A stretch of 64,000 nucleotides of DNA from IMG/VR virus record IMGVR_UViG_3300045988_161114, positions 120,640-184,639 of that record; one strand, given 5' to 3'. The position numbers were made by a program, and so were the translations under genes. The notes beneath the pieces are model-generated. The model was not told where the DNA came from and searched no databases. It saw only the letters and a program-made list of their open reading frames with translations. Shown here piece after piece: positions 24,580 to 63,353 of the stretch; positions within the stretch are counted from its first letter, which is position 1; every line of letters begins with the position of its first letter. The stretch comes from a virus.

Positions 24580-24836
24580 TGCATTAAATTGCATAAATTG
24601 ACGTAAAAAGCAATCAAAATTTGTATGCATCTATTTATATCGGGTTTACATTCGGTATAAGTGGTGCATACAAAAACAAAACTTTGTAGAATATTGAAAT
24701 ATAAAGAAATATTCTTATGTAAAAGTTTATTAAGAAGTGTATGCAATTTAAATAGCTCAATAAGCATGTAGTCATGCATCGGGTATATCAAACGACTTTT
24801 TTAACTGGGCCAAAGCATATTTTGTGTACATTTCTT

Positions 24837-25340
24837 AATGAGCTTTTGCTCATTTATTGCCGTAAAGGTGATATTTATTAAGATCGTTTGGACGCGGGTT
24901 CGACTCCCGCCAACTCCACCAAAAGACATTTCAAAGATGTTGATACTCTGAAAAGAGTTAGCGATTCCATATAGCCTATTTTTAACCCTATTACATTATT
25001 GCGATTGAGTTAAAATGTCTTATGAGATGTCTTCTGATGGGGTTGTAATGGAATTCGACAGGCGGTGAATAGGGATATTGCTCGGCACGAGTTGCTTCGT
25101 AAAAGCAAAATTAAAATAAATGCAAACGATGATGTTTACATGGTACGCGCCGCTGCCTAATTTAGGTAGTTGAGCATAAATGTACAGGGTTTGGACAGTA
25201 CCTGGTAACAGAAACTGTCCGAGAATTCTAACACTGCGGCTAGTGCACAGTGAGTTTCGTAATCGTCTACGATTGGGTAGAGCTGGAATCGTAACCAGCA
25301 ATTATAAAAGAGTAAATATGTTTGGGCATACCTAGTAACC
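24837..25340 (+). ncRNA. ssrA: Circularly permuted (two-piece) tmRNA gene: acceptor piece, spacer, coding piece
   Basis: 24890-24921 is GGACGCGGGTTCGACTCCCGCCAACTCCACCA (T arm + 3' acceptor strand + CCA). 25039 onward is GGGGTTGTAATGGAATTCGACAGG (tmRNA 5' end). GGGGTTG/CAACTCC pair with a G3.U70 wobble. Tag ORF: GCA at 25122, ANDDVYMVRAAA, TAA at 25158-25160. The outer ends are approximate. Confidence 0.7.
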
Positions 25341-51202: not shown

Positions 51203-52315
51203 ATGGAATTGATTAAGTTTATTCAAAAATATGGCGAAGATAAACTCCATGAATTAGGAGTGCATTTTTATAAATATGGAGATTTGACTGTATATCAATA
51301 CAGTCAAATTGAAAGTTTTCCATTTAAAAGAAATCCAGTTGTTATAGAATCTCGTGGTGTTATCTTAGATAATAATTTAAAAGTTATTGCAAGGCCATTT
51401 GACAGATTCTTTAATTATAATGAAGATGATGTATGTCCAGATATAAACTGGTCTGAATGCCATATTTATGAAAAGGTTGATGGAAGTCTTATTAAGGTTT
51501 TTCATTATAATGGTAATTGGCATGCTGGAACAAAAAAGACTGCATATGGCAATACGGATGTAAATGGTTTTGATGTAATGTTTAAAGACCTTGTTTATAA
51601 GGGCTTTAATGTTCAAACTCAAGAAGAATTTAATTCTATATTTGAAGGATTTGAGGGATTAACTTTAATATTTGAACTTACATCTCGTGAGAATAAAGTA
51701 GTAACATCGTATCCTAGTACACAAATGTGGTTATTGGCAATTCGTGATAATGATACCGGCATGTATATTGATAAAGATGAAATAGTTCTAAATCTTAAGA
51801 ATAGTGGAAGATTGAATAAATATTCAATTAGACTTCCTAAGAAATTTACATTCAATAGCTATTCTGCTTGTGCTAAGGCTGCAGATGAACTTCCAGATCT
51901 AAATGAGGGATACGTTGTTTACAATACAGATGGTGCCCCTATTTTAAAAATTAAGAGTCCTGCATATGTTGCAGCTCATCAGTTACGCGGTAATGGTTTA
52001 AGTGGTAATAAAGCACTTGAACTTGTTATTAATTTTGAAGAATCTGAATATTTATCTTTGTTTCCTGAAGATAAGGAAATTCTTGATAAGTATATTGATG
52101 CAAGAAATGAATTATTTGATTCATTGGATTTTATTTGGGAGAAGTATAAAACTGCTCCTACTATAAAAGATTTTGCATTAACAATAGGTAATTATTCTGA
52201 GTCTGCTATCCTGATTAAGAAATATAAGGATAGAGATAAAACATTTTTAGAGATATTCAATGATTTTCTATTTTCTCGTAGAAAAAATTTTATATCTAAA
52301 TTTTTAAGCAATTAA
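51203..52315 (+). CDS. RNA ligase (Rnl1-like covalent nucleotidyltransferase)
   Basis: Motif I YEKVDGSLI, motif III LIFELTS, motif IV NEGYVVY, motif V ILKIKSP. Confidence 0.8.
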   Translation: MELIKFIQKYGEDKLHELGVHFYKYGDLTVYQYSQIESFPFKRNPVVIESRGVILDNNLKVIARPFDRFFNYNEDDVCPDINWSECHIYEKVDGSLIKVFHYNGNWHAGTKKTAYGNTDVNGFDVMFKDLVYKGFNVQTQEEFNSIFEGFEGLTLIFELTSRENKVVTSYPSTQMWLLAIRDNDTGMYIDKDEIVLNLKNSGRLNKYSIRLPKKFTFNSYSACAKAADELPDLNEGYVVYNTDGAPILKIKSPAYVAAHQLRGNGLSGNKALELVINFEESEYLSLFPEDKEILDKYIDARNELFDSLDFIWEKYKTAPTIKDFALTIGNYSESAILIKKYKDRDKTFLEIFNDFLFSRRKNFISKFLSN

Positions 52316-52327
52316 AAGGAAATTAAA

Positions 52328-53443
52328 ATGGGCGGCAAGTTATCTTCTCGTAGAATGGTAAATGAATATAGCTTTCTTTGCAATGCTATTCTTTCTGCTA
52401 TTAACATCAAGAATATTTATATCCCTCGGCACATTGAAAATAAATCCTCTTTTGGGGATATTGATGTTTACATCAAAGATGGTGATATTAAATTTGAAGA
52501 GGTAGCAGAACTTCTTCGCAAATCAAAATCATTTAATGTCAAAGATGTATTTGTCGGAACCAATCAGGTAGTTATTCATTCTGAAGAATTTAATATTGAC
52601 GTTCAGGTTGATATTAACTTTATAAATAATTGGAGCTTTAGACATTGGCATGATTTTGGAACAATGTCTGCTCTAATAGGACAAATTATTCCTTATGAAA
52701 TGAAGTTTGCAAGTAATGGATTATTCCTTCGTAAAACTGAAAATATGATTGAATATCCTATTAAACTTGATTTTGAAGAAGCTTTGTCATTCTTAGGTTT
52801 TAACGAAGTAAAATTTAGAAACGGATTTAAAACAGAAGAGGCACTTTTTGATTGGCTTGTTACATCTAAGTATTTTAATAAAGCTGATTTACTTATTAAT
52901 CCGCACAATTCTGGTAAACGTAAACGTGACGAAAATCGTGGCATTGATAAAATAGTTGAGCAAATGCTTAACTGTAAAAATAAAGGCAGATTCGATTTGA
53001 ATCGTTTAGAGCCATATAAACGTATGGCTTATAATATGTTTAAATCGGTCCAAAGATGGGAATATGAAATTAAGCGCATTAAAAAATGGTGCAAAATTTT
53101 ATATGTACCTCCATTTAAAATTGAAGAATTAGCTTCAAAGAATACTTTATTACTTAATGCTTCTAAGATTGATAATAAAAAGTTTTCTGATCTGATTGTT
53201 CGACATGCTTATAGTGATCCTGATACTAAGGCTATTGATGCCTCAATTAAGATTGTTAAAAAGCAGGTAAATCCTGCTCTTGTAAAAGAGTATTCAGATT
53301 TATACAGCGGTAGAGAACTGCTTATTAAATTGTCTTACCTTATTTTAAGAAGTAAAGGCATTAAAGAGGCTAAGAATTATATTCCGTCTCGTGTTTTGCG
53401 CGATGTTTTGAAATTGGAAAAGGAATTAAATGGGAACAAGTAA
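52328..53443 (+). CDS. Putative nucleotidyltransferase-fold protein
   Basis: SSFGDIDVYI and later FNIDVQVDI fit the G(S)...DxD...D pattern of Pol-beta-type NTases. Sits between the RNA ligase and Pnkp genes. The product call is weak. Confidence 0.6.
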   Translation: MGGKLSSRRMVNEYSFLCNAILSAINIKNIYIPRHIENKSSFGDIDVYIKDGDIKFEEVAELLRKSKSFNVKDVFVGTNQVVIHSEEFNIDVQVDINFINNWSFRHWHDFGTMSALIGQIIPYEMKFASNGLFLRKTENMIEYPIKLDFEEALSFLGFNEVKFRNGFKTEEALFDWLVTSKYFNKADLLINPHNSGKRKRDENRGIDKIVEQMLNCKNKGRFDLNRLEPYKRMAYNMFKSVQRWEYEIKRIKKWCKILYVPPFKIEELASKNTLLLNASKIDNKKFSDLIVRHAYSDPDTKAIDASIKIVKKQVNPALVKEYSDLYSGRELLIKLSYLILRSKGIKEAKNYIPSRVLRDVLKLEKELNGNK

Positions 53444-54326
53444 ACTTAAAGTATATTTGACTGTTGGTATTTCTGCTTCTGGTAAAACTTCATGGGCAAA
53501 GACCAATCCTATTCCTAATGCTGTTTATATCACTAGGGATGATATTAGATTCAATCTTATTAAGCCCGGGCAAACCTGGGCTGATTATAAGTTCAATAAA
53601 GAAAATGAACAGATTGTTTCTAATATTCAAAGATCAATTGCTGATCAAGCAGTAAAAGATAAAAAGAATATTGTTATTGTAGATACTAATCTTTCTTTTC
53701 ATGTTAGACAATATTGGAAAGATTTTTCCAAAAAAGTCGGTTACGGTTTTGAAATTATTGATTTTGAATGCTCTTTTGAAGAAGCAGTTAAACGTGATAA
53801 TCTCAGAGCAAATGGTGTTGGTCAATCAGTTATCAGAAAGCAATACAAGAATTATTTAGAATATTCTGGATTTAAATTTTATATTCCAGATGAAGCTAAG
53901 CCAGATTGCATTGTTGTCGATATTGATGGGACTGTTGCTCAAATGCATAATCGTTCTGCATTTGAATGGGATAAAGTAGGTAATGATAAGCCTCGTCAAT
54001 TTGTAATCGATCTTATTCTTGCATATGCAGAAAAGCATAAATGCAGAGTTGTATTTTTATCTGGGCGTGATTCTATTTGTCGTGATGCTACTATTGATTG
54101 GATTAAGAAGAACGTTTCAAAAACTATTGATTTTGAATTGTATATGAGAAAATCAAAAGATAATCGCAAAGATTATTTTGTTAAAAAAGATTTATTTTTT
54201 GACTATGTTGAACCATCATATAATGTTAAGGCAGTTTTTGATGATCGCCCTCAGGTAGTTAGATTATGGCATGATCTTAAAATAGAGAATGTCATTTGTG
54301 TTGGTGAGCCATTTATTGAATTTTAA
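53430..54326 (+). CDS. Polynucleotide kinase / 3'-phosphatase (T4 Pnkp-like)
   Basis: N-terminal P-loop GISASGKTSWA. C-terminal HAD phosphatase motif IVVDIDGTVA and FDDRPQVV. Confidence 0.8.
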   Translation: MGTSKLKVYLTVGISASGKTSWAKTNPIPNAVYITRDDIRFNLIKPGQTWADYKFNKENEQIVSNIQRSIADQAVKDKKNIVIVDTNLSFHVRQYWKDFSKKVGYGFEIIDFECSFEEAVKRDNLRANGVGQSVIRKQYKNYLEYSGFKFYIPDEAKPDCIVVDIDGTVAQMHNRSAFEWDKVGNDKPRQFVIDLILAYAEKHKCRVVFLSGRDSICRDATIDWIKKNVSKTIDFELYMRKSKDNRKDYFVKKDLFFDYVEPSYNVKAVFDDRPQVVRLWHDLKIENVICVGEPFIEF

Positions 54327-54337
54327 AGGAATTTATT

Positions 54338-54922
54338 ATGGGTAAAATTTTTACTATTTTTAAAACTATTTTTAGCTCTATCTTTAAAAAGCCCTTTATG
54401 ACAAATCCTGATTTGGCTAAAGCCGAAATTGAAAAACAGATCGAAAAAGGTCGTCAATATCTTCAAAGTCTTTATATCGAATCAGCAAAAACCGATAAAA
54501 ATATTCTTAAATACAAAGAAGCTGTTGCAACTGAAGAGCGTAAATTGAAAGACGCAGAAATTATTGCTGCAGCTGACGATTCTAATGAAGAAAAGATCAT
54601 TAACGCTTTTAATATTAAAAAGTGTTTAGATAATTCAAAAGCTATGCATAAGAATTATGAATCATTTAAGAATCAAATTACTAAACGTATTTCAGAAGTA
54701 ACAATTAAGATTTCATCTCTTGAATTGCAAAAGTCTCAAATTGTAACATCTATGTCGGCAAACAATTTTAATTTGTCTAAATTTAATATGGATAAATTTA
54801 TTGAAGAACTTGATTCCAATACCGAGGGTATTGCAAAATTCCAGAAAGAAACTGGAATTAATGATAGTCAATTCGAGCATGAATATCAAGAATATAAGAA
54901 ATCTTTTAAAAAAGAATCTTAA
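54338..54922 (+). CDS. Coiled-coil protein, possibly PspA/IM30-like
   Basis: MGKIFTIFKTIFSSIF... amphipathic N-terminus followed by a long coiled coil, similar in layout to PspA (MGIFSRF...). Confidence 0.5.
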   Translation: MGKIFTIFKTIFSSIFKKPFMTNPDLAKAEIEKQIEKGRQYLQSLYIESAKTDKNILKYKEAVATEERKLKDAEIIAAADDSNEEKIINAFNIKKCLDNSKAMHKNYESFKNQITKRISEVTIKISSLELQKSQIVTSMSANNFNLSKFNMDKFIEELDSNTEGIAKFQKETGINDSQFEHEYQEYKKSFKKES

Positions 54923-54936
54923 TGTATCATTGGTAA

Positions 54937-54969
54937 AGCCATCCTGTTAATCAGGGTGGCTATTTTATT
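54937..54969 (+). terminator. Rho-independent terminator
   Basis: agccatcctg / cagggtggct stem, then ATTTTATT. Confidence 0.65.
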
Positions 54970-54981
54970 AAAGGGAATGAA

Positions 54982-55590
54982 ATGGATATTGTTGTATATC
55001 AGGAAGACAATGGTAATGTCTCTATACTTGAAAGAGAGAATAGATGGAATTCTTTTAGGAAGTATATAAAAGGAAAATTTCCTCATAATTTATATATATT
55101 TCTATCTGCTTTTATTTTTATTTATTCTTTTTCCTTTGTAGAACCTGTATGGCCTGTTGTTTTTTTATTTTTATTTGGTTTTATATATTTCATTATTGTT
55201 GAGATATTTGGAATTAGAAGATTTATTATTTCTGATAAACCTGAATATATGTCAATATCGCATTCTGATATTATATTATCTTATGGTGAAGTATATCCAA
55301 ACTTAAAATGCTTTATTATTATAAAAGATAAATGTAATATATTGGTTTTTACTTCTGCTTTTGATATAGAAAAAGGATTATATATTTCTGATAAGACTCA
55401 ATCATTTGATGACGGAATAAGTAAAAATTTATACACTACAGAATATTTTGGCGATACATTTGTAAATGATGTTAAGTCGATTATTGGGAATATAAAAAAT
55501 AATAATGATTTTTTCGAATATGGAAAAATAAAAAATTATTATTTGGAAGATTTTATATACATATATAATAAGTATGTAAAAAATATATAA
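54982..55590 (+). CDS. Membrane protein
   Basis: 202 aa with two TM helices. Confidence 0.6.
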   Translation: MDIVVYQEDNGNVSILERENRWNSFRKYIKGKFPHNLYIFLSAFIFIYSFSFVEPVWPVVFLFLFGFIYFIIVEIFGIRRFIISDKPEYMSISHSDIILSYGEVYPNLKCFIIIKDKCNILVFTSAFDIEKGLYISDKTQSFDDGISKNLYTTEYFGDTFVNDVKSIIGNIKNNNDFFEYGKIKNYYLEDFIYIYNKYVKNI

Positions 55591-55631
55591 TATGTAGGGC
55601 GTTATTGCCCTACTATAATAAAAAGGTTAAT

Positions 55632-56597
55632 ATGAGAGAAATTATAAAATTTGGTAGTATAGGGCAGTTTAGAAATTTTATTAAGAATATGCAATATTTA
55701 GGATGGCGCAAACTTAATTTAATTGGAACTGTAAAAATACATGGAACTAATTCATCTGTAGGATTAGATCTTAAAGATAATTCTTTGTTTTATCAAAGTC
55801 GGAATAGAATGTTATCATTAGAAGATGATAATTATGATTTTGCAAAATATATTGAAGATAATAAAGCTGAATTTTTAAAAATATTTGATGAAATAAAAAA
55901 CAAAATCAATATAGAAAAATATGATTCAATCATTATTTATGGTGAATTGGCTGGCAAAGGTATACAAAGTAAAGTTGCTGTTTCTCAGTTAGATAGATTC
56001 TTTGCCCCGTTCTCTATTGTTGGTGTGAATAAAGATACAGTTGACGAATTAGATGTGAAATTGAATATTAATGAATCTATAAGATTTTATCCTGTAGAAA
56101 CTTTTGGTGTTTATAATGTTGAACTTGATTTAGATAATGTTCATTTAGCCCAACAAAAAATAAAAGATTTAACAATAAATGTTGAAAATGAATGTCCAGT
56201 TGGTAAATATTTTGGAGTATCTGGCACCGGCGAAGGTTTAGTATTTACTGATGAAACTAAGCAATATAATTTCAAATCTAAAGGTGAGAAACATTCTGTT
56301 TCTAAAGTAAAAGTAATAGCAGATGTCGATATAGAAAAGATTAACAAGATCAAAGATTTTGTTGACTATTCTGTTACTGAGAATAGACTTAATCAGGGTA
56401 TTGAATATCTAAAAGAAATGAATAAAGAATTAGATATTTCAAATATGGGCGATTTCTTAAGATGGCTTGCTAATGACGTATTAAAAGAAGAGCAAGATGT
56501 TATAACTGAAAACGGTCTTGATAATGATTTAAAAAATATAATGAAATCTGTATCAAGTAAAGGTCGTAAATGGTTTATGGATAAAATAAATGAATGA
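55632..56597 (+). CDS. RNA ligase (Rnl2-like)
   Basis: Motif I GTVKIHGTN (T4 Rnl2-type KxHGTN), motif III IIYGELAG, motif IV GEGLVFT, motif V NFKSKGEKH. The ATG at 55632 was chosen because the track start lies in a hairpin. Confidence 0.8.
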   Translation: MREIIKFGSIGQFRNFIKNMQYLGWRKLNLIGTVKIHGTNSSVGLDLKDNSLFYQSRNRMLSLEDDNYDFAKYIEDNKAEFLKIFDEIKNKINIEKYDSIIIYGELAGKGIQSKVAVSQLDRFFAPFSIVGVNKDTVDELDVKLNINESIRFYPVETFGVYNVELDLDNVHLAQQKIKDLTINVENECPVGKYFGVSGTGEGLVFTDETKQYNFKSKGEKHSVSKVKVIADVDIEKINKIKDFVDYSVTENRLNQGIEYLKEMNKELDISNMGDFLRWLANDVLKEEQDVITENGLDNDLKNIMKSVSSKGRKWFMDKINE

Positions 56598-56835: not shown

Positions 56836-57162
56836 ATGAATACCAAAAGATTCTATATATTGAAAGAAAATGCAATTTCTTCTATATTTAATGATAAAGA
56901 ATATAATCCCAATATTTTTTCTATTAATGATTTAAAAGAAATTGGTTCTTTAAATAATTACTCTGTTGTTTATACTAAATCAACTTCAGAGTTTTTACAC
57001 AGAAATCTTATATTGTTTTCTGAATATGTAATCGATATTGTTATTTTTGGGAATGATTTAAAGTCTTTTAATGTTCTCAAAAGTAGAGCTGCATTTACTA
57101 TGGAAAATGCAGTAGAATTGTTAGATTTGATTGAGGTAAATAAATATGCAGCAATATATTAA
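56836..57162 (+). CDS. Hypothetical protein
   Basis: 108 aa. Confidence 0.6.
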   Translation: MNTKRFYILKENAISSIFNDKEYNPNIFSINDLKEIGSLNNYSVVYTKSTSEFLHRNLILFSEYVIDIVIFGNDLKSFNVLKSRAAFTMENAVELLDLIEVNKYAAIY

Positions 57163-58015
57163 TTTGGTTAAGGATGTTTTAGAGAATGGAACTCCAAAAC
57201 CAAACCGTACAGAAATCCCTACGCCATATACGGTATTCGGGCGCCAGATTCGATTTGATTTGTCGGAAGGTTTACCTATTCTGACAACCAAGAAGATGGC
57301 TGTAAAAGCCTGTATCGCTGAACTATTGTGGTTTATCGAAGGGAGTTCTCATGAACGTCGTTTAGCCGAGATTCAATACCAAAAGCCTCGCAAAGAATTA
57401 AGAAATAAACGGACAATTTGGTCTGATAATTATGAAGCATGGACTGGTAAAAAGATTAGTAATGTTCGCTATGGAGATCTTGGCTGTGTGTATGGAGTTC
57501 AATGGCGAAATTTTACTATTTATGGTAATCACGCACTTGCAGATGATTTTGACCAATTATTTTGGTTGGTCAATGAATTGAAAACAAATCCCAATAGCCG
57601 GAAGTTAATTATGCTGTCATACAATCCGGCACAAATTGAGAACGCCGCATTAACAGCTTGTCATACACAAGTCCAATTCCAAGTACAAAATGGGAAATTG
57701 AATTGTATGTGGACACAAGCAAGTGTTGACTTATTTCTTGGACTTCCATTCAATATTCTTTCTTATGCTATTTTAACTCATATGTTGGCAAAAGAAGTAG
57801 GGCTCGAAGTTGGAGAACTGATTGGTTCTCTTGGAGACGTACACATTTATGAAAACGCCGTTGAAAATTTAAAGACACAAATTGAACGTGAGCCATTGCC
57901 TCTTCCTAAATTATGGCTAAATCCTGATAAGGATATTTTCCATTATAAAATGGATGATATTCGTATTGATGGATATGAAAGCCATGAAGTATTAAAAGCT
58001 AAAATGGCGGTTTGA
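57146..58015 (+). CDS. thyA: Thymidylate synthase (ThyA) family enzyme
   Basis: NRT...TTKK...ELLWFIEG...ACHTQVQFQV (catalytic Cys)...DLFLGLPFNILSYAIL...GDVHIY is collinear with E. coli ThyA. The QRS phosphate-binding Arg position reads QAS. Confidence 0.85.
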   Translation: MQQYINLVKDVLENGTPKPNRTEIPTPYTVFGRQIRFDLSEGLPILTTKKMAVKACIAELLWFIEGSSHERRLAEIQYQKPRKELRNKRTIWSDNYEAWTGKKISNVRYGDLGCVYGVQWRNFTIYGNHALADDFDQLFWLVNELKTNPNSRKLIMLSYNPAQIENAALTACHTQVQFQVQNGKLNCMWTQASVDLFLGLPFNILSYAILTHMLAKEVGLEVGELIGSLGDVHIYENAVENLKTQIEREPLPLPKLWLNPDKDIFHYKMDDIRIDGYESHEVLKAKMAV

Positions 58016-58786: not shown

Positions 58787-59099
58787 CCTTGGGAAGCTTA
58801 AACCCGGTATAAGCAATCGACTCATGAATAATCGTGCGTTTGGAAACGAAAGTTCCAAAATGAATTGGATGAATTCAGGGAAACCTAAGTCTTTTAGATA
58901 TGGCAATCCTGAGCCAAGCTAAGAGCCAACTCTTAGAAGGTGCAACGACTACTGGAGAGGTAAAGGTCCTCTTAATGACCAGATTAGCGTCCAACGCCTA
59001 AGTGATTTATCATATGGCGGTGATATAGTCTAGGGAGTATAGAAATATACACAAACCTGAATCGATAGACAGTGGGTTCGAATCCCACCCCAAGGACCA
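58787..59099 (+). tRNA. tRNA(CAU) (Ile2 or Met) interrupted by a group I intron
   Basis: Acceptor ccttggg/cccaagg. D arm gctt..aagc. Anticodon stem atcga/tcgat. Loop ctCAT|intron|aa. T arm gtggg-ttcgaat-cccac. Encoded CCA. Not initiator-like, because the anticodon stem has no GGG/CCC. Confidence 0.8.
58826..59059 (+). ncRNA. Group I intron, IC3-like (Azoarcus tRNA-Ile intron type), 234 nt, no ORF
   Basis: Inserted after U36 of the anticodon and ends in G. GTG at 58835-58837 can pair with the exon CAU (G.U). The core GGGAAACCTAAG...TATGGCAATCCTGAGCCAAGC matches the remembered Azoarcus core GAAACCUAAG...UAUGGCAA..GAGCCAAGC. Confidence 0.75.
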
Positions 59100-59178: not shown

Positions 59179-60756
59179 ATGACATCTCCACTTTTTAAAA
59201 CTCAACGTCCTAAATTGGCAGTTGGTAAAACTACAAGTATTCCTGCCACTCGTGTTAACACTATAAACGAAGCTGGTGGCGCTGCTTATTCAATGAGTCA
59301 TGAACATGCATTAGCTCAATATGTAGTTACAGGTATGTTTGATAACACTTGTTATCTTGATGGACATACTCAACTTAAGCATATTAAAGAGCTTGCTAAT
59401 AAATGTAGTAATAATTTTGTTATGCGTTTGGCTGTTTATGCTCATGAATATGGTTATATGAAAGATACTTCTGCATATCTGCTTGGTTATTTAATGAAAC
59501 AGAATGACAAGAGTTATTTTAAACGTGCATTTCCGCTCGTTATTACAAATGGCCGTATGCTTCGTACATTTGTTCAAATTATTCGTTCTGGTGCATTTGG
59601 TTCTCGTAGTTTTGGTACAGTGGCCAAAAAAGCTATTCAAGACTATTTGAATAACTGTACTGATAAACAAATTATTAATGCTTCTATTGGTAATAATCCA
59701 TCTCTTAAAGATGTGATCATGATGGTTCATCCTAAAGCAAACAATAGTTCACGTAATCAACTTTATCGTTGGGTATGTGGCTTTGATTTTGATGAAAAAC
59801 AGTTACCGGTAGAATTGCAAAAATATTTAAAATTGCAAAAAGATCCATCTGGATTTGAAGAGCTTCCAAAAGTTCCATTCCAAATGTGTACAAGTATGCC
59901 ATTGACTGATGCTGGATGGAAAGCAATTTTTGATATTTCAACTTGGCAACAAATTCGTATGAATTTGGCTACTTTTGATCGACATAATGTCTTCAATGAT
60001 TTTTCTTATGTAAATAAAGCATATGAACGTTTAGTTTCTCGTGACGATATTCTTCGTTCTAAAGTTATGCCTTATTCTGTATTTAGTGCATATCTAAATG
60101 CAGGTTCTATTCCTGCTCGTATTAAAGATGCATTGAATACTGCTTTACAAATTAGTCTTGAGAATATCCCAAAGACTGATGGCAAAACAGTTCTTGCAAT
60201 TGATTATTCTGGTTCTATGACCTGGAAAATTAATTTGAAAAGTTCTGTTCGTCATATTGATATTGCTGCAGTATTTGCTGCTGCATTGAAATTCCGTAAT
60301 CCGGAAGCAGAGATTGTTTTATTTAACAGTCGCGCAAGAGACTATATTGTCAATCCGGAAACCACTGTGTTACAATTAGCTAATAATATTTCTCGTTTAG
60401 CCAATGGTGGCACTGATTGTGGTGCAGCCCTTCAGCATATTTATGATAAAGGTCGTTATAGTGGAATGCCTGACAATATCATTATGATTAGTGATAATCA
60501 ATCATGGCTTGGATTCAATAGAGGCCATAAAACCACTGCGCAAAGAATTTTCGATGATATTCGAAAAATTAATCCTCGCGCCAAAATGGTTAATATTGAT
60601 ATTGCACCAATGTCAAGTTCTCAGACTTCACCTAGTGAACATGTACTTAATATCGGCGGATTTAATGATACAGTATTTAAAATTGTATCAGATTTCTTTG
60701 AGTCTAAAGGCGATAAGTCATTCTGGGTAAACAAAATTAAGGCTATTGAAATTTAA
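59179..60756 (+). CDS. Ro60-like TROVE-domain + vWA protein (Rsr orthologue)
   Basis: 525 aa. N-terminal ..NEAGGAAY...ALAQYVVTGMFDNTCY.. is TROVE-like. The C-terminal vWA domain has the MIDAS motif LAIDYSGSM. Confidence 0.8.
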   Translation: MTSPLFKTQRPKLAVGKTTSIPATRVNTINEAGGAAYSMSHEHALAQYVVTGMFDNTCYLDGHTQLKHIKELANKCSNNFVMRLAVYAHEYGYMKDTSAYLLGYLMKQNDKSYFKRAFPLVITNGRMLRTFVQIIRSGAFGSRSFGTVAKKAIQDYLNNCTDKQIINASIGNNPSLKDVIMMVHPKANNSSRNQLYRWVCGFDFDEKQLPVELQKYLKLQKDPSGFEELPKVPFQMCTSMPLTDAGWKAIFDISTWQQIRMNLATFDRHNVFNDFSYVNKAYERLVSRDDILRSKVMPYSVFSAYLNAGSIPARIKDALNTALQISLENIPKTDGKTVLAIDYSGSMTWKINLKSSVRHIDIAAVFAAALKFRNPEAEIVLFNSRARDYIVNPETTVLQLANNISRLANGGTDCGAALQHIYDKGRYSGMPDNIIMISDNQSWLGFNRGHKTTAQRIFDDIRKINPRAKMVNIDIAPMSSSQTSPSEHVLNIGGFNDTVFKIVSDFFESKGDKSFWVNKIKAIEI

Positions 60757-60990
60757 TAGCTTAAATAACGTTCCTATAGTTGGGTATTGGTTTCGTTTCC
60801 TTTAACGATATCTGGTTATATGATTGCTATCTGTATTTTGATACAGATAGTGGACTGCACAAAAACAATCAAATGTACGAAAATGCAGATAATCGTACCT
60901 TATAATCAACTGAACCATTTCTTTTGATAGTTGATTTCTACTTTGTAGAGTAATGAGTATTCTAGTAGTATTCATTGCTATGTAAAATAT

Positions 60991-61068
60991 CTAGGCGTAG
61001 CGCAGTCCGGTTAGCGTGCCTGCTTTGGAAGCAGGGGGTCGTAGGTTCAAATCCTACCGTCTAGACCA
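60991..61068 (+). tRNA. tRNA-Pro(UGG)
   Basis: ctaggcg ta gcgc-agtccggtta-gcgt g cctgc-ttTGGaa-gcagg gggtc gtagg-ttcaaat-cctac cgtctag a cca. Confidence 0.85.
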
Positions 61069-61077
61069 AAGATTTAT

Positions 61078-61214
61078 GGGCTGTTGGCGAAATTGGTAGA
61101 CGCAAGGGTTAGTTTAACCTATTAAATTTGTCCAACAGGAATGCTTATAGGTTTACATTTTAAATTGGAAACTTAATACACCCTCTTTTGTGAGTTCGAT
61201 TCTTACACAGCCCA
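61078..61214 (+). tRNA. tRNA-shaped gene A carrying the conserved inserted module (isotype unresolved)
   Basis: Perfect acceptor gggctgt/acagccc. Leu-like D arm gcga-aattggtag-acgc. T arm gtgag-ttcgatt-cttac. No encoded CCA. Module at 61116-61157. agggt(61105)/accct(61183) could be the anticodon stem, but no canonical 7-nt loop was found. Confidence 0.5.
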
Positions 61215-61226
61215 TCCCATTTAAAT

Positions 61227-61351
61227 GCGGAGATAGTTCAAGGGTAGAATGCTTAAAAATTACTTTATAACTTTGTCTGTAAAGAATGCTGTAAAGTTTA
61301 CAATTCCATTCCAAGGAAGTGATGCAGGTTCGAGTCCTGTTCTCCGCTCCA
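61227..61351 (+). tRNA. tRNA-Gly(UCC) carrying the conserved inserted module
   Basis: gcggaga ta gttc-aagggta-gaat g c[tt.. module 61262-61302 ..]ttcc-atTCCaa-ggaag tgat gcagg-ttcgagt-cctgt tctccgc t cca. Without the ~51-nt insert it is collinear with E. coli tRNA-Gly(UCC). Confidence 0.65.
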
Positions 61352-61383
61352 AATTAAAATAGACACATATCCGAGGAATTTAA

Positions 61384-61908
61384 ATGCGAACAATAGTAAT
61401 AAATCTTATAGGAGCCCCTGGTACTGGTAAAAATACAATTGCGTCAGAATTGTTTGCAAAAATGAAATGGGCGGGATATGATGTTGAATTAGTTTCTGAA
61501 TATGCTAAAGAGCTTGTTTGGGAACAAAGAGATGAGACGTTTAAAAACGAATTGTACCTATTTGCTAAACAGCAACATAGAATGTTTAGACTTAATGGCA
61601 AGGTAAAATATATTATTACTGACCGACCATTAATTTTATCTGTATTTTATAATAAGAAATACGGAGATAATAGTAAAGTTTTTAAAGATCTCGTATTACA
61701 AGAGATTGATAAGTTTGAAAATATAAATATATTCCTTAATAGAACTAAACCATATGTTCAAAAAGGAAGAAATCAAACTGAAGAAGAATCTATAGAATTC
61801 GCATTTGAAATGCGTGATATAGTTAAAGAGTATTGTGGCAATTTAATAGTTCTTGATGCTATTGAAAATTCTGCCTCTAATTATATACTTAGCTTATTGA
61901 AAGAATAA
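61384..61908 (+). CDS. P-loop NTPase (small kinase-like)
   Basis: Walker A LIGAPGTGKNT. 174 aa. Confidence 0.7.
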   Translation: MRTIVINLIGAPGTGKNTIASELFAKMKWAGYDVELVSEYAKELVWEQRDETFKNELYLFAKQQHRMFRLNGKVKYIITDRPLILSVFYNKKYGDNSKVFKDLVLQEIDKFENINIFLNRTKPYVQKGRNQTEEESIEFAFEMRDIVKEYCGNLIVLDAIENSASNYILSLLKE

Positions 61909-61923
61909 ACAACTGGTGTTATT

Positions 61924-62070
61924 ATGATAGTATATGAAGTCTATCAATTTGATGGTAGTAATTGCCATCGACTAAAATTGTTTATGTCGTTTGAAGAAGC
62001 AAGAGATTACTTGTTTAATCAGAAGGATTCAATATCGTTTTCGCATGGCATGCGGCAAATAGCAATATAA
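61924..62070 (+). CDS. Hypothetical small protein (48 aa)
   Basis: Its stop overlaps the next ATG (TAATG). Below the ORF-track cutoff. Confidence 0.45.
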   Translation: MIVYEVYQFDGSNCHRLKLFMSFEEARDYLFNQKDSISFSHGMRQIAI

Positions 62071-62294
62071 TGAAAATCTGGAAAATTAAAAAGGCAGAAG
62101 TTAAAGAAATTCTTGAAATAAAAGGATATTTCTTTTGCCACAAATACAAATATTCGCATGATAAAGCTAGAACAATTATGCGCCAATTGTGCAAAGAGGG
62201 TCTAGCAAAAAGATGCCCTAGTCCACCTGGACATATGGATACTGTTTGTATCGAATTAATTAAAAATAGTATTACAGAAGTTCAGCCTGTTTAA
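62070..62294 (+). CDS. Hypothetical small protein
   Basis: 74 aa. Confidence 0.6.
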   Translation: MKIWKIKKAEVKEILEIKGYFFCHKYKYSHDKARTIMRQLCKEGLAKRCPSPPGHMDTVCIELIKNSITEVQPV

Positions 62295-62338
62295 AGTTTT
62301 TGTCTTTCATTTTTTCGGGTTCCTTCTGTACCCAATTT

Positions 62339-62465
62339 GAGGGGTTAGTTTAATCGGGAAAACATTATTGGGAATTTTACAATTTTGTCCCTTATTGGAA
62401 TGCAGTAAGATTTACATTTCACGGCTAATGAAAAGATGTAGGTTCGAGTCCTACACCCCTTACCA
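62339..62465 (+). tRNA. tRNA-shaped gene C carrying the conserved inserted module (anticodon loop atypical)
   Basis: gaggggt ta gttt-aatcggga-aaac a [module 62373-62416] tttca-cgGCTaa-tgaaa agat gtagg-ttcgagt-cctac acccctt a cca. Position 33 is G rather than U. The nominal anticodon is GCU but there is no long variable arm. Confidence 0.5.
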
Positions 62466-62485
62466 AAACAAAAATAGAGACTTCT

Positions 62486-62647
62486 ATGAGAAAATTTAAT
62501 AAGCAAACTATATACAATAGTAATGGATCATTTGTTATGAGTGATACTCAAAAACATAATGTTAAAGTTGGTGGCTATGTATGGAATGCATGTTTCCTAA
62601 TTTTATTTGCCGCTAAAGTTTTCGGCTTTGCAACATATTCTTGGTAG
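62486..62647 (+). CDS. Small membrane protein (53 aa), frame continues past an in-frame TAG to 62755
   Basis: ATG 62486...TAG 62645-62647. The same frame stays open for 35 more, hydrophobic codons and ends in a TGA that overlaps the next ATG. Confidence 0.5.
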   Translation: MRKFNKQTIYNSNGSFVMSDTQKHNVKVGGYVWNACFLILFAAKVFGFATYSW

Positions 62648-62751
62648 GTTGTATTTTCTCCATACCTAATTTTATTGGGTTTAGTTTTACTTATTTTGTT
62701 TGTCTGGTTTATAGCAGCAGTAGCTATTATTGCTGGATCAGGTAGCAGACA

Positions 62752-62967
62752 ATGAAAAAATATTCTTTCTCATATAGATTCGATAATAAAGACTGGACAA
62801 TTAGTATTTATGCTGATAGTGAAAAAGAAGCCAAAAGAAAATTTTGGGCTTTAAAAGAAAATGGCAAATACGATGGTGAGATCGTTTGTAAAATCAATGC
62901 TACAAAGCAATATAATTTTATCAAATCTATTTATCAAAAGATTAAAAATGTATGGAACTCAAACTAA
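62752..62967 (+). CDS. Hypothetical small protein
   Basis: 71 aa. Confidence 0.6.
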   Translation: MKKYSFSYRFDNKDWTISIYADSEKEAKRKFWALKENGKYDGEIVCKINATKQYNFIKSIYQKIKNVWNSN

Positions 62968-63036
62968 TATTAAAAATCAGATATTAGTCCCTGAGTCTAT
63001 ATACATGGGTGTTTACCATCCATGCTCTATTTAAAT

Positions 63037-63128
63037 GCGCTCATAGTTTAATTGGATAAAACAACTGGTTTCTACCCAGTATCCCGTCGAAGGGCTAGTT
63101 CCGGGTTCGAGTCCTGGTGGGCGTGCCA
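63037..63128 (+). tRNA. tRNA with UCU anticodon (nominally Arg) and a class-II-like long variable arm
   Basis: gcgctca ta gttt-aattggat-aaac a actgg-ttTCTac-ccagt atCCCgtcgaaGGGctagtt ccggg-ttcgagt-cctgg tgggcgt g cca. Confidence 0.7.
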
Positions 63129-63149
63129 AATTTATTTCCGAGATACACA

Positions 63150-63353
63150 ATGAAATATTTCAATTGTTTTGTAAAATATGCTATTAGAGAAGAACATACT
63201 ATGTTTATTCAGATGTCAGAGGGATGTATGAATAGCCCTTGTATTGGTGATATTAATAATGCAATTAGAAAAAAGATTGCAGATAGGCATTATGGCGATG
63301 GCGAATCTGCAAAAATACTTGAAGTAAATATTCTTGGTCAATTTGAGATTTAA
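63150..63353 (+). CDS. Hypothetical small protein
   Basis: The ATG at 63150 was chosen because the track GTG start overlaps the tRNA 3' end. Confidence 0.55.
   Translation: MKYFNCFVKYAIREEHTMFIQMSEGCMNSPCIGDINNAIRKKIADRHYGDGESAKILEVNILGQFEI

What the first reader, a model, noticed from the sequence alone, without database searches (positions are those of the whole stretch)
61078..62465. Three tRNA-shaped genes next to the Ro60 gene carry the same covarying ~42-nt stem-loop module between the D arm and the anticodon arm
Seen in sequence:
- Genes A (61078-61214), B (61227-61351) and C (62339-62465) have clean acceptor stems, D arms and GGTTCGA-type T arms, but each is about 50 nt too long.
- The extra sequence starts right after position 26-31 in each and contains one shared module (A 61116-61157, B 61262-61302, C 62373-62416).
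- Helix P1 is AACCTAT/ATAGGTT in A, ACTTTAT/GTAAAGT in B and AATTTTAC/GTAAGATT in C. The sequences are unrelated but always complementary. The T.G pairs work only in plus-strand RNA.
- An invariant internal loop reads AAnTTTG on the 5' side and ATGC on the 3' side.
- Hairpin P2 is TCC-aaca-GGA, TCT-gtaa-AGA and TCC-cttatt-GGA. The C>T change is compensated by G>A.
- An invariant TACA follows P1.
- Deleting about 51 nt from B leaves a textbook tRNA-Gly(UCC): cttcc-atTCCaa-ggaag with the 4-nt variable loop tgat.

Why it is unusual: the element is far too short for a group I or group II intron. It is not at the canonical 37/38 intron site, and I could not draw a bulge-helix-bulge motif.

Inference, with two non-exclusive readings:
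1. It is a new class of small tRNA intervening sequence. It could be removed by a protein endonuclease and resealed by the phage Pnkp and RNA ligases encoded 5-10 kb upstream.
2. It is a grafted protein-binding module, for example for the Ro60/TROVE protein whose gene ends about 320 nt upstream of gene A. That would make these tRNA / Y-RNA chimeras.

I know of no described element with this architecture.
Basis: partly seen in the sequence, partly recalled or inferred. Interest (0 to 1): 0.9.

Follow-up and report, generated by a model that had tools for sequence, protein, structure and literature searches.

The report
tRNAs carrying a Ro60-binding Y-RNA arm
Three tRNA-shaped phage genes next to a Ro60 gene carry, inside the anticodon stem, the known Ro60-binding module of bacterial YrlA Y RNAs. 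They are an un-permuted variant of a known tRNA-mimicking RNA family rather than a new kind of intron.

Summary
Genes A, B and C are tRNA-shaped, and each carries a ~42-nt stem / internal loop / hairpin module with strongly covarying P1.

The module is already described. It is the Ro60 (Rsr)-binding module of bacterial YrlA Y RNAs (Rfam RF02553), read in circularly permuted order:
- GAAUGC overlaps the published GNCGAAN0-1G motif.
- (U)UACA is the published YUAY.
- AAnUUUG-UC matches the Rfam consensus AAAACUUG-UC.

The signature GAATGC-N6-14-TACA occurs 254 times on the Ro60 strand and 0 times on the other strand in 80 bacterial Ro60 loci. In 78 phage Ro60 loci the counts are 100 and 9.

What is unusual here is the topology. 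Canonical YrlA has its ends in the module, a closed acceptor stem, no anticodon loop and no CCA. In the window the module is closed by a tiny hairpin and grafted into the 5' strand of the anticodon stem of non-permuted tRNAs with normal ends (CCA encoded in B and C).

supported.
not supported, but not excluded for B.

Verdict: a new variant of a known kind, of moderate interest.

The parts
59179..60756 (+). Ro60 (TROVE + vWA) gene, the presumed protein partner of the module
   Evidence: Pfam vWA_Ro60, E 3e-14. Full-length match to D. radiodurans Rsr 2nvo (E 5e-13) and to Thermus phage phiLo Ro60 9kop (E 8e-13). Homologues of 29-93% identity lie next to module-bearing RNAs in other phage contigs.
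61078..61214 (+). Gene A: tRNA-shaped RNA with a Leu-type D arm. The AGGGU/ACCCU 'anticodon' stem encloses the module plus a conserved small hairpin. There is no 7-nt anticodon loop and no encoded CCA.
   Evidence: Acceptor GGGCTGT/ACAGCCC, D arm and T arm parsed. Orthologues covary AGGGT/ACCCT with AGGAG/CTCCT. Deletion variants give only forced anticodons.
61116..61157 (+). Module A: P1 AACCTAT/ATAGGTT, J UAAAUUUG, P2 UCC-aaca-GGA, AUGC, UACA (GAAUGC at 61139-61144)
   Evidence: R1 hit, 55.0 bits. Pattern hit. Colinear with Rfam YrlA after in-silico permutation.
61227..61351 (+). Gene B: tRNA-shaped RNA with encoded CCA. The module interrupts the 5' strand of the anticodon stem (CUU|..|CC, loop AUUCCAA).
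   Evidence: Rfam tRNA 44.0 bits with a 62-nt insertion. Removing 61255-61305 gives tRNA-Gly(UCC). The single-sequence MFE fold reproduces the acceptor stem, P1, P2, anticodon hairpin and T arm.
61262..61302 (+). Module B: P1 ACTTTAT/GTAAAGT, J AACUUUG, P2 UCU-guaa-AGA, AUGC, UACA (GAAUGC at 61284-61289)
   Evidence: R1 hit, 49.2 bits. Pattern hit.
62339..62465 (+). Gene C: tRNA-shaped RNA with encoded CCA. The module sits between position 26 and an intact anticodon arm UUUCA-CGGCUAA-UGAAA (G33).
   Evidence: Rfam tRNA 44.9 bits with a 65-nt insertion. The loop CGGCUAA is shared by orthologues in L032, L034 and L041 (listed) and in L039 (read). L033 has CUGAUAA instead.
62373..62416 (+). Module C: P1 AATTTTAC/GTAAGATT, J AAUUUUG, P2 UCC-cuuauu-GGA, AUGC, UACA (GAAUGC at 62398-62403)
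   Evidence: R1 hit, 53.7 bits. Pattern hit.

Best explanation
Genes A, B and C are Y RNAs of the YrlA kind, built the other way round. Each is a tRNA-shaped RNA with normal tRNA ends. An extra arm is grafted into the 5' strand of its anticodon stem.

The extra arm is the Ro60-binding module of bacterial Y RNAs. It consists of two helices around an internal loop: 5' strand (A)AnYUUG, 3' strand AUGC-N. The neighbouring U-C/G-A pairs start the second helix, and UACA follows the first.

The Ro60 ring encoded 321 nt upstream binds this arm. The result is a ribonucleoprotein in which Ro60 carries a tRNA-shaped domain.

By analogy with characterised Y RNAs, the RNA acts as a tether and/or gate. It would dock Ro60 onto proteins that recognise tRNA shape or onto an exoribonuclease such as host PNPase, and it would control access of other RNAs to the Ro60 cavity during infection. 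It may act together with the phage RNA-repair enzymes encoded 5-10 kb upstream.

What is shown:
- identity of the module with the YrlA module;
- strand-specific linkage to Ro60 genes;
- covariation of the helices;
- the un-permuted topology.

What is inferred:
- physical binding by this phage's Ro60;
- processing by RNase P and 3' maturation;
- stability of the unspliced RNA;
- the tether/gate function.
For: 1. **Linkage to Ro60.** Ro60 homologues (92% down to 29% identity) lie beside module-bearing tRNAs in 8 independent IMG/VR loci recovered by a motif-only search. Conversely, R1 finds 27 modules of at least 34 bits in 15 of 78 Ro60 loci fetched by protein similarity, all on the Ro60 strand.
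2. **Strand specificity.** GAATGC-N6-14-TACA occurs 100 (+) against 9 (-) times in the 78 phage Ro60 loci, and 254 (+) against 0 (-) times in 77 of 80 bacterial Ro60 loci.
3. **Match to Rfam YrlA.** RF02553 hits those bacterial units (79.7, 75.9, 70.8 and 66.1 bits). Its consensus is cggCga-AUGCu-uggGgaa-CUAc...uucCcca-aAaAcUuG-ucGccg, which is the window module read in permuted order. The in-silico permuted A, B and C align colinearly with YrlA, with GAATGC, TACA, the core of the T loop and several D-arm positions invariant, and with TTGTC shared in order near the 3' end, though MAFFT shifts its register in two of the eight rows. The 9-nt spacing between GAAUGC and UACA equals the bacterial mode.
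4. **Published motifs.** GNCGAAN0-1G is proposed as the Rsr contact and overlaps the nucleotides protected by Rsr in D. radiodurans Yrn1. YUAY lies at nt 22-25. YrlA and YrlB co-immunoprecipitate with Rsr (PMC4201824).
5. **Other topologies.** The same module also occurs with no tRNA, and in YrlA topology around complete permuted tRNAs, in other phages.
6. **Anticodon loops.** A has no anticodon loop, C has G33, and only 24 of 39 chimeric loops have U33. This is relaxed decoding constraint, as expected for Y RNAs.
7. **Covariation.** P1 and P2 covary.
Against: - No binding or expression data exist for this phage.
- The closed P2 is only 3 bp, against a roughly 6-bp terminal stem in YrlA.
- The 'GNC' part of the published motif is not kept (A CAG, B AAA, C UUG before GAAUG).
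- The D- and T-stem sequences differ from the highly conserved YrlA ones.
- The anticodon stem is precisely restored across the insert in every case and covaries (winB CUUCC/GGAAG against L034 CUUCU/AGAAG). B, and many relatives, keep a canonical loop and CCA, which a pure Y RNA would not obviously need.
- Single-sequence folds are not significantly stable (z -1.3 to -1.6).
Confidence: 0.7

Rival explanations
1. The module is an intervening sequence. The RNAs are pre-tRNAs; the arm is cut out, possibly while held by Ro60. The nick left in the anticodon stem is healed and sealed by the phage Pnkp and Rnl1/Rnl2-type ligases or by host RtcB, giving decoding tRNAs. The permuted forms in other phages would mature through a circular intermediate, as in Cyanidioschyzon merolae.
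For: - Excising 51 nt from B gives a canonical tRNA-Gly(UCC).
- The 5-bp anticodon stem is restored across the insert in all parsed cases, and about 60% of loops are canonical.
- Permuted units in L104 and L083 contain complete anticodon arms and an encoded CCA followed by a short linker.
- Rnl1-like, Pnkp and Rnl2-like genes lie at 51203-56597.
- A nick in a duplex is the preferred Rnl2 substrate (established knowledge).
- Wang et al. [quoted passage not shown]
Against: - The distance from UACA to the junction varies from -1 to +2/3 nt, and the junction lies anywhere from 26|27 to 30|31. That is awkward for an enzyme that measures from the module.
- A and C do not yield canonical tRNAs.
- Orthologous bodies change the loop between phages (AUUCCAA, ACGGUUA, AUGGUUA).
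- Many modules enclose only a 10-48 nt loop, with nothing to splice.
- Bacterial YrlA accumulates unspliced and Rsr-bound (PMC4201824).
- No endonuclease candidate is known.
- No bulge-helix-bulge is possible. The conserved UACA before the 3' junction would need UGUA at the end of exon 1, which is absent in A, B and C (read directly).
Confidence: 0.15
2. The RNAs are working tRNAs that keep the arm. Ro60 bound beside the anticodon loop shields or gates them. This could, for example, protect phage tRNAs from host anticodon nucleases, or hold them in reserve until needed.
For: - CCA is encoded in B and C.
- The cloverleaf is intact and the anticodon stem is conserved and covarying.
- The genes sit in a tRNA cluster beside RNA-repair genes.
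- M. smegmatis YrlA is cut by RNase P and receives CCA in vivo while still bound by Rsr (PMC4201824).
Against: - A roughly 42-nt arm emerging from positions 26-31 would probably clash with the ribosomal decoding sites that contact the anticodon stem (established structural knowledge; not tested here).
- A lacks an anticodon loop, C has G33, and U33 is missing in 15 of 39 loops.
Confidence: 0.1
3. The module is a small mobile element (MITE-like or homing) that targets tRNA genes. Its nearness to Ro60 is incidental.
For: Nearly identical modules sit in different tRNA bodies within one genome: L026 (two copies) and L029 in a 532-kb contig, and L016/L018.
Against: - Strand specificity relative to Ro60 is 254:0 in bacteria.
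- No inverted terminal repeats or target duplications are seen.
- The window copies have unrelated P1 sequences.
- The element is a curated structured RNA family bound by Ro60.
- Copies away from tRNAs are still next to Ro60.
Confidence: 0.03

Closest known systems
YrlA (Y RNA-like A), Rfam RF02553; Chen et al. 2014 (PMC4201824); Wang et al. 2018 (bioRxiv 10.1101/312249)
   Same: - Encoded next to a Ro60 gene and on the same strand.
- Same binding module: helix / AUGC-N vs AAnYUUG internal loop / helix, followed by YUAY (UACA), with the same 9-nt spacing.
- A tRNA-like D arm, T arm and acceptor stem are attached through the anticodon-stem position.
   Different: - YrlA is circularly permuted. 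Its 5' and 3' ends lie in the module, the T arm precedes the D arm, the acceptor stem is a closed loop, and it has no anticodon loop and no CCA.
- In the window the ends lie at the acceptor stem (CCA encoded in B and C), the D arm precedes the T arm, an anticodon arm is present (B, C), and the module is closed by a 3-bp hairpin.
- The GNC of GNCGAA, and the conserved D/T stem sequences of YrlA, are not kept.
- RF02553 gives no hit on the window, even at E up to 10.
RNase P-cleaved, CCA-tailed M. smegmatis YrlA (Chen et al. 2014)
   Same: An Rsr-bound RNA with free acceptor ends, a CCA tail and the Ro60 module at the anticodon-stem side. Topologically this is what the window genes encode.
   Different: The mycobacterial RNA is two pieces held together by the module. 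The window RNAs are one piece. The actinobacterial motif is GCCGA(A/G) rather than GAAUGC (ET08).
D. radiodurans Yrn1 and metazoan Y RNAs
   Same: The Ro60 site lies in a helix with an internal loop or bulge. The RNAs are modular, acting as tether and gate. Yrn1 has a T-arm-like element and an anticodon-arm-like stem.
   Different: In Yrn1 the Ro60-binding stem takes the place of the acceptor stem. Metazoan Y RNAs have no tRNA-like domain and use GGUCCGA.
Circularly permuted tRNA genes of Cyanidioschyzon merolae (Soma et al. 2007, as cited) and archaeal bulge-helix-bulge introns at non-canonical positions
   Same: tRNA genes are interrupted or opened in the anticodon-stem region. Permuted and non-permuted versions coexist across genomes.
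   Different: Those elements use a bulge-helix-bulge motif and a splicing endonuclease. No bulge-helix-bulge can be drawn here, no such endonuclease is known in bacteria or phages, and the element here is a protein-binding motif tied to Ro60.

Membership tests
YrlA-type bacterial Y RNA (Rfam RF02553) | Encoded within a few kb of a Ro60/Rsr gene, on the same strand | tested here: met
   A, B and C lie 321-1583 nt downstream of the Ro60 ORF on the + strand. The same holds in 15 further phage loci.
YrlA-type bacterial Y RNA (Rfam RF02553) | Ro60-binding module: GNCGAAN0-1G motif, then a helix strand, then YUAY; partner strand ..AAAACUUG-UC.. | tested here: met
   GAAUG(C), N9, (U)UACA and AAnUUUG-UC are present in all three genes. 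They match the Rfam consensus and Rfam-confirmed YrlA units. The leading GNC is not conserved.
YrlA-type bacterial Y RNA (Rfam RF02553) | tRNA-like D arm, T arm and acceptor stem | tested here: met
   Rfam tRNA hits on B and C. All arms are parsed for A, B and C.
YrlA-type bacterial Y RNA (Rfam RF02553) | Permuted order: RNA ends in the module, T arm 5' of D arm, acceptor stem closed, no anticodon loop, no CCA | tested here: not met
   The ends lie at the acceptor stem, the D arm is 5' of the T arm, CCA is encoded in B and C, and an anticodon arm is present in B and C. RF02553 gives no hit at E up to 10.
YrlA-type bacterial Y RNA (Rfam RF02553) | Bound by Ro60/Rsr in vivo | not testable with these tools
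   Needs immunoprecipitation or EMSA.
Decoding tRNA | 73-93 nt cloverleaf with a 5-bp anticodon stem and a 7-nt loop carrying U33 and R37 | tested here: not met
   The genes are 125-137 nt and ARAGORN finds none. After deletion only B is canonical. C has G33 and A has no 7-nt loop.
Group I / group II introns and known small self-cleaving ribozymes (hammerhead, twister, pistol, hatchet, etc.) | Match to the family covariance model | tested here: not met
   Rfam 15 at E up to 10 over 60700-63200 returns only tRNA and a noise-level permuted-tmRNA hit. The group I model does detect a real intron elsewhere in the window.
Archaeal/eukaryal protein-spliced tRNA intron | Bulge-helix-bulge at the exon-intron boundaries | tested here: not met
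   By inspection, the 4-bp central helix would need UGUA or a similar sequence at the end of exon 1 to pair with the conserved UACA before the 3' junction. Exon 1 ends ..CAAGGGU (A)..AUGCUU (B) and ..AAAACA (C). The junction position also varies.
MITE-like mobile element | Many copies on both strands, terminal inverted repeats, target-site duplication, no link to a particular gene | tested here: not met
   There are 3 copies in the window, all in tRNA-shaped genes. Counts are 254:0 and 100:9 in favour of the Ro60 strand.

The most novel reading that the evidence does not exclude
The un-permuted chimeras are true pre-tRNAs. Their Ro60-binding arm is removed by a protein-only pathway: cleavage while held on Ro60, then end-healing and sealing of the nicked anticodon stem by phage Pnkp and Rnl2-type ligase or by RtcB. 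This would be the first protein-dependent tRNA splicing in the bacterial/phage world. It would give T4-type Rnl2 and the Ro60-RtcB gene linkage a natural substrate. A weaker version is also possible: these chimeras are surviving intermediates showing that YrlA arose from a tRNA that acquired a Ro60-binding arm and was later permuted.
Probability: 0.12. Interest if true: 0.9.

Novelty: new variant of a known kind. Interest (0 to 1): 0.55.

Why it matters
YrlA RNAs are known as tRNA mimics bound by Ro60, but what their tRNA-like domain does is still unknown. Their origin is explained only by a model of dimeric tRNA transcripts.

The window shows the same Ro60-binding module sitting as an extra arm in complete, non-permuted tRNAs with normal ends, CCA and, in B, a canonical anticodon arm. 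Other phages carry every intermediate: permuted tRNAs with full anticodon arms, module-only units, and tandem arrays.

This gives three things:
- a natural series of circular permutations that delimits the functional core of the Ro60 site;
- a simpler route from tRNA to Y RNA;
- a concrete substrate for asking whether Ro60 RNPs touch aminoacylation, the ribosome or tRNA repair during phage infection.

It also shows that RF02553 misses this variant in the window, and that ARAGORN's default tRNA search missed all three genes, so it is probably missed by routine annotation.

Tried and rejected
1. **Exhaustive deletion scan with ARAGORN.** It was far too permissive: almost any deletion gave some 'tRNA'. 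I replaced it with explicit stem/loop parsing and three targeted deletions.
2. **T4 stable RNAs C and D (rnaC/rnaD) as possible relatives.** R1 gives no hit. Only a weak UUCC..GGAAUUGC resemblance in rnaD. Dropped.
3. **K-turn, loop E/sarcin-ricin, UAA/GAN and T-loop readings of the internal loop.** None fits the conserved strands by inspection.
4. **UACA pairing with UGU of UUUGUC (pseudoknot).** There is no covariation: CUCGUC variants keep UACA.
5. **Small self-cleaving ribozyme idea, prompted by the natural circular permutations.** No Rfam hit, and the motif turned out to be a protein-binding site.
6. **Single-sequence folding.** Only B reproduces the model, and z-scores are weak. The comparative evidence carries the argument.
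7. **GenBank phage DNA search.** Only tRNA-Pro-type matches, so there is no close cultured relative. By protein the closest is Myxococcus phage Mx1 at 39%.
8. **Reviews PMC10870794 and PMC6047535.** Not held. No supplementary files are held for PMC4201824.
9. **Co-occurrence of the module with Pnkp/Rnl across contigs.** Not tested, because loci hold only a few kb around each hit.
Full report

Yes. Reading 60300-63000 shows three tRNA-shaped genes at the stated coordinates.
- A (61078-61214): acceptor GGGCTGT/ACAGCCC, Leu-type D arm, T arm GTGAG-TTCGATT-CTTAC.
- B (61227-61351): GCGGAGA/TCTCCGC, with encoded CCA.
- C (62339-62465): GAGGGGT/ACCCCTT, with encoded CCA.

ARAGORN reports only tRNA-Pro (60991-61068), tRNA-Arg (63037-63128) and a tmRNA. 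Rfam's tRNA model recognises B and C, but only by skipping 62-65 nt in the anticodon arm (44.0 and 44.9 bits).

The core pattern TTTGTCY-N3-8-RGAATGC occurs exactly three times in 64 kb, against 0.01 expected.

Removing 61255-61305 from B gives a 74-nt tRNA-Gly(UCC). The same operation is less clean for the others:
- C gives a class-I body with anticodon loop CGGCUAA (G33).
- A has no 7-nt anticodon loop. Its AGGGU/ACCCU stem encloses the module plus a conserved small hairpin.

**2. Is it a family, and do the helices covary?**

An exact-pattern scan of IMG/VR gave 30 loci, and 14 matches were inside tRNA-shaped genes.

I built a covariance model (R1) from 12 copies. It separates real copies (34-55 bits) from chance pattern matches (20 bits or less).

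On 31 distinct copies:
- all 8 P1 pairs show compensatory changes;
- 97% of cells pair, against 33-62% with slid partners;
- the P2 C-G to U-A change recurs.

**3. What travels with it?**

A tblastn of all window ORFs against the motif-derived loci showed a Ro60 homologue beside the module-bearing tRNA in 8 loci. Identity ranged from 92% down to 29%.

The window protein is a full-length Ro60. It matches D. radiodurans Rsr 2nvo and Thermus phage phiLo Ro60 9kop end to end, and has the Pfam vWA_Ro60 domain.

Going the other way, I fetched 78 phage Ro60 loci by protein similarity. R1 found 27 modules of at least 34 bits in 15 of them, all on the Ro60 strand. Most lie 250-600 nt downstream of the stop codon.

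The looser signature GAATGC-N6-14-TACA occurs 100 times on the Ro60 strand and 9 times on the other strand of these loci.

**4. The module is not tied to tRNA introns. It comes in three topologies.**

In L076/L079, L053/L054, L069, L077 and many others the module appears outside tRNAs and in circularly permuted form. The order is X'-GAAUGC-N-P1'-UACA-[loop]-P1-J(YYG)-UC-X, where X and X' are perfectly complementary over 8-17 nt.

The loop is one of two things:
- 10-48 nt of plain sequence; or
- a whole tRNA in permuted order. In L104 this reads anticodon arm CAU - T arm - CCTCGCC-A-CCA - CTAT - GGCGAGG - D arm.

With strict criteria, 39 phage units were permuted and 28 normal. The conserved core is therefore the internal loop plus UACA, and either helix can be the open one.

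**5. Identification with YrlA.**

The permuted-with-tRNA form has the topology of YrlA, the tRNA-mimicking Y RNA bound by bacterial Ro60 (Rsr). YrlA has its ends in a stem, its T arm before its D arm, and a closed acceptor stem (PMC4201824; 10.1101/312249).

Evidence that this is the same element:
- **Mycobacteriophage ET08**, used in the original YrlA alignment, shows the same architecture with GCCGA(A/G) in place of GAAUGC.
- **Bacterial Ro60 loci.** I fetched 80 of them, from Stenotrophomonas, Lysobacter, roseobacters, Verrucomicrobia, Acidobacteria, Neisseria and others. GAATGC-N6-14-TACA occurs 254 times on the Ro60 strand and never on the other strand, in 77 of the 80 loci. The typical context is GGC-GAAUGC-CG-GUGGAAC-UACA ... 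CCCUUGUC.
- **Published motifs.** GGCGAAUG is the published GNCGAAN0-1G, and CUAC(A) is the published YUAY.
- **Rfam.** RF02553 (YrlA) hits exactly these units: 79.7, 75.9, 70.8 and 66.1 bits.
- **Rfam consensus.** It reads cggCga-AUGCu-uggGgaa-CUAc-[T arm][closed acceptor][D arm]-uucCcca-aAaAcUuG-ucGccg. This is the window module element for element: P2, AUGC-N, P1', UAC(A), P1, AAnYUUG, UC.
- **Spacing.** The 9-nt spacing between GAAUGC and UACA in the window is the bacterial mode, 161 of 186.
- **Alignment.** After opening A, B and C in the P2 loop and joining their ends in silico, they align colinearly with Rfam-confirmed YrlA. GAATGC, TACA, the core of the T loop and several D-arm positions are invariant. 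TTGTC follows in the same order near the 3' end, though MAFFT shifts its register in two of the eight rows.

**6. What is different here?**

[quoted passage not shown] The window genes are the opposite permutation:
- normal tRNA ends, with CCA encoded in B and C;
- D arm before T arm;
- an anticodon arm present in B and C;
- the module closed by a 3-bp hairpin and inserted in the 5' strand of the anticodon stem.

Across the family the insertion point ranges from 26|27 to 30|31:
- 26|27: C, L021 Ile-GAU, L008 Thr-GGU;
- 28|29: L016 and L029 Arg-UCG, L026 Val-UAC;
- 29|30: L026a, and B (ambiguous between 27 and 29);
- 30|31: L017 Met-CAU.

RF02553 cannot see this arrangement and gives no hit at E up to 10.

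In the 80 bacterial loci I found no unambiguous un-permuted copy. There were 171 permuted units. The 4 'normal' and 12 ambiguous cases appear, from the printed contexts, to come from tandem YrlA arrays rather than from a module inside a single tRNA. In this sample the un-permuted form is therefore a phage feature:
- the ~170-185-kb clade of the window, which has 2-3 orthologous chimeras per genome just after Ro60;
- a 532-kb phage;
- several other contigs.

The nearest described thing is the RNase P-cleaved, CCA-tailed, two-piece form of M. smegmatis YrlA that stays bound to Rsr. The window encodes a one-piece equivalent.

**7. Mechanism.**

*Best supported (about 0.7).* The RNAs are processed like tRNAs, and the arm is bound by the phage Ro60. 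The complex works as a Y RNP. The tRNA-shaped domain is the effector or tether module, and the RNA also gates the Ro60 cavity.

Precedents:
- D. radiodurans and Salmonella Y RNAs tether Rsr to PNPase.
- A Thermus phage Ro60 with its Y-like RNAs assembles with host PNPase in vitro (PMC12135203).

The setting fits an RNA-surveillance or RNA-repair role during infection. It is a tRNA cluster, with Rnl1-like, Pnkp and Rnl2-like genes 5-10 kb upstream. That role is inference.

Support for a non-decoding role:
- A has no anticodon loop.
- The CGGCUAA loop of C (G33) recurs in its orthologues L032, L034, L039 and L041, while a sister phage has CUGAUAA.
- Orthologues of B carry AUUCCAA, ACGGUUA or AUGGUUA.
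- Only 24 of 39 chimeric loops have U33.

*The intron reading (about 0.15).* It still has some points in its favour:
- the anticodon stem is restored exactly, and covaries, across the insert;
- B is canonical after excision;
- permuted phage units keep full anticodon arms and CCA.

Against it:
- the junction offsets vary;
- some modules enclose nothing;
- no bulge-helix-bulge can be drawn;
- bacterial YrlA is stable and unspliced;
- A and C do not give canonical tRNAs.

*A retained-arm decoding tRNA shielded by Ro60 (about 0.1) and a mobile-element reading (about 0.03)* are weaker.

**8. Novelty and verdict.**

- The module belongs to a described, curated family, so the claim of a new element class fails.
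- The topology appears undescribed in the literature I could search. That topology is a Ro60-binding arm in a complete, non-permuted tRNA, together with the full permutation series seen in phages. The library is limited, and two key reviews were not available.
- Classification: a new variant of a known kind.
- Interest is moderate. It bears on how Y RNAs arose from tRNAs and on what the tRNA-like domain is for. It also exposes an annotation blind spot.

Noticed in passing
window 58787-59099 (+): A tRNA(CAU) gene split by a ~240-nt group I intron in the anticodon loop (Rfam Intron_gpI 58814-59052, 83.6 bits). The exons are CCTTGGG..ATCGACTCAT and ..TCGAT..GTGGGTTCGAATCCCAC-CCCAAGG-A-CCA. It lies immediately upstream of the Ro60 gene. 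ARAGORN missed it.
   Followed up: partly
window 24796-25222 (+): A phage-encoded circularly permuted (two-piece type) tmRNA: Rfam tmRNA_permuted 115.8 bits and alpha_tmRNA 104.8 bits; ARAGORN tag peptide ANDDVYMVRAAA. This is another permuted tRNA-like RNA in the same genome.
   Followed up: no
window 63037-63128 (+): A tRNA-Arg(UCU) with a 16-nt insertion in the variable region (ucccgucgaagggcua). That is a long variable arm, unusual for tRNA-Arg.
   Followed up: no
window 51203-56597 (+): An RNA-repair gene set upstream of the tRNA/Ro60 cluster: Rnl1-like ligase 51203-52315, Pnkp 53430-54326 and Rnl2-type ligase 55605-56597. A NAPRTase-family gene lies at 46895-49360 and thymidylate synthase at 57146-58015.
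   Followed up: partly
window 61384-61908 (+): A P-loop kinase-like ORF (Pfam AAA_28) between genes B and C. It is conserved at the same place in four related phage contigs (74-77% identity in L008, L015, L019 and L021).
   Followed up: no
L026:4983-5028, L026:13552-13597, L029:905-950 (532-kb contig IMGVR_UViG_3300049215_000771); L016:1426-1470 and L018:932-976: Within one genome, nearly identical modules (the same P1 sequence) sit in tRNA bodies of different identity (Arg-UCG, Val-UAC, a UUU loop with A33). This suggests recent copying of the arm between tRNA genes, or concerted evolution.
   Followed up: partly
L076:5980-6950 (also L079), L053:3660-3850, L064:3650-3830: Tandem chains of permuted module units start right after a tRNA 3' end. 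The P2 strand of one unit overlaps the complementary strand of the next (for example a 15-nt perfect complement TCAAAATTAAAACCA/TGGTTTTAATTTTGA). This allows mutually exclusive foldings.
   Followed up: partly
L110:6133-6155 (Myxococcus phage Mx1, OR576727.2): A cultured phage whose Ro60 is 39% identical to the window's has GGAATGC-GG-TGGGAC-GTACA about 540 nt downstream of its TROVE gene and just before an annotated tRNA-Gly. It could serve as an experimental system for the phage-type module.
   Followed up: partly
L031:3054-3172 (phage T4 rnaD): T4 stable RNA D contains UUCC-cugaguaa-GGAAUUGC and a later UUACA, a faint resemblance to the module. The covariance model R1 gives no hit.
   Followed up: partly
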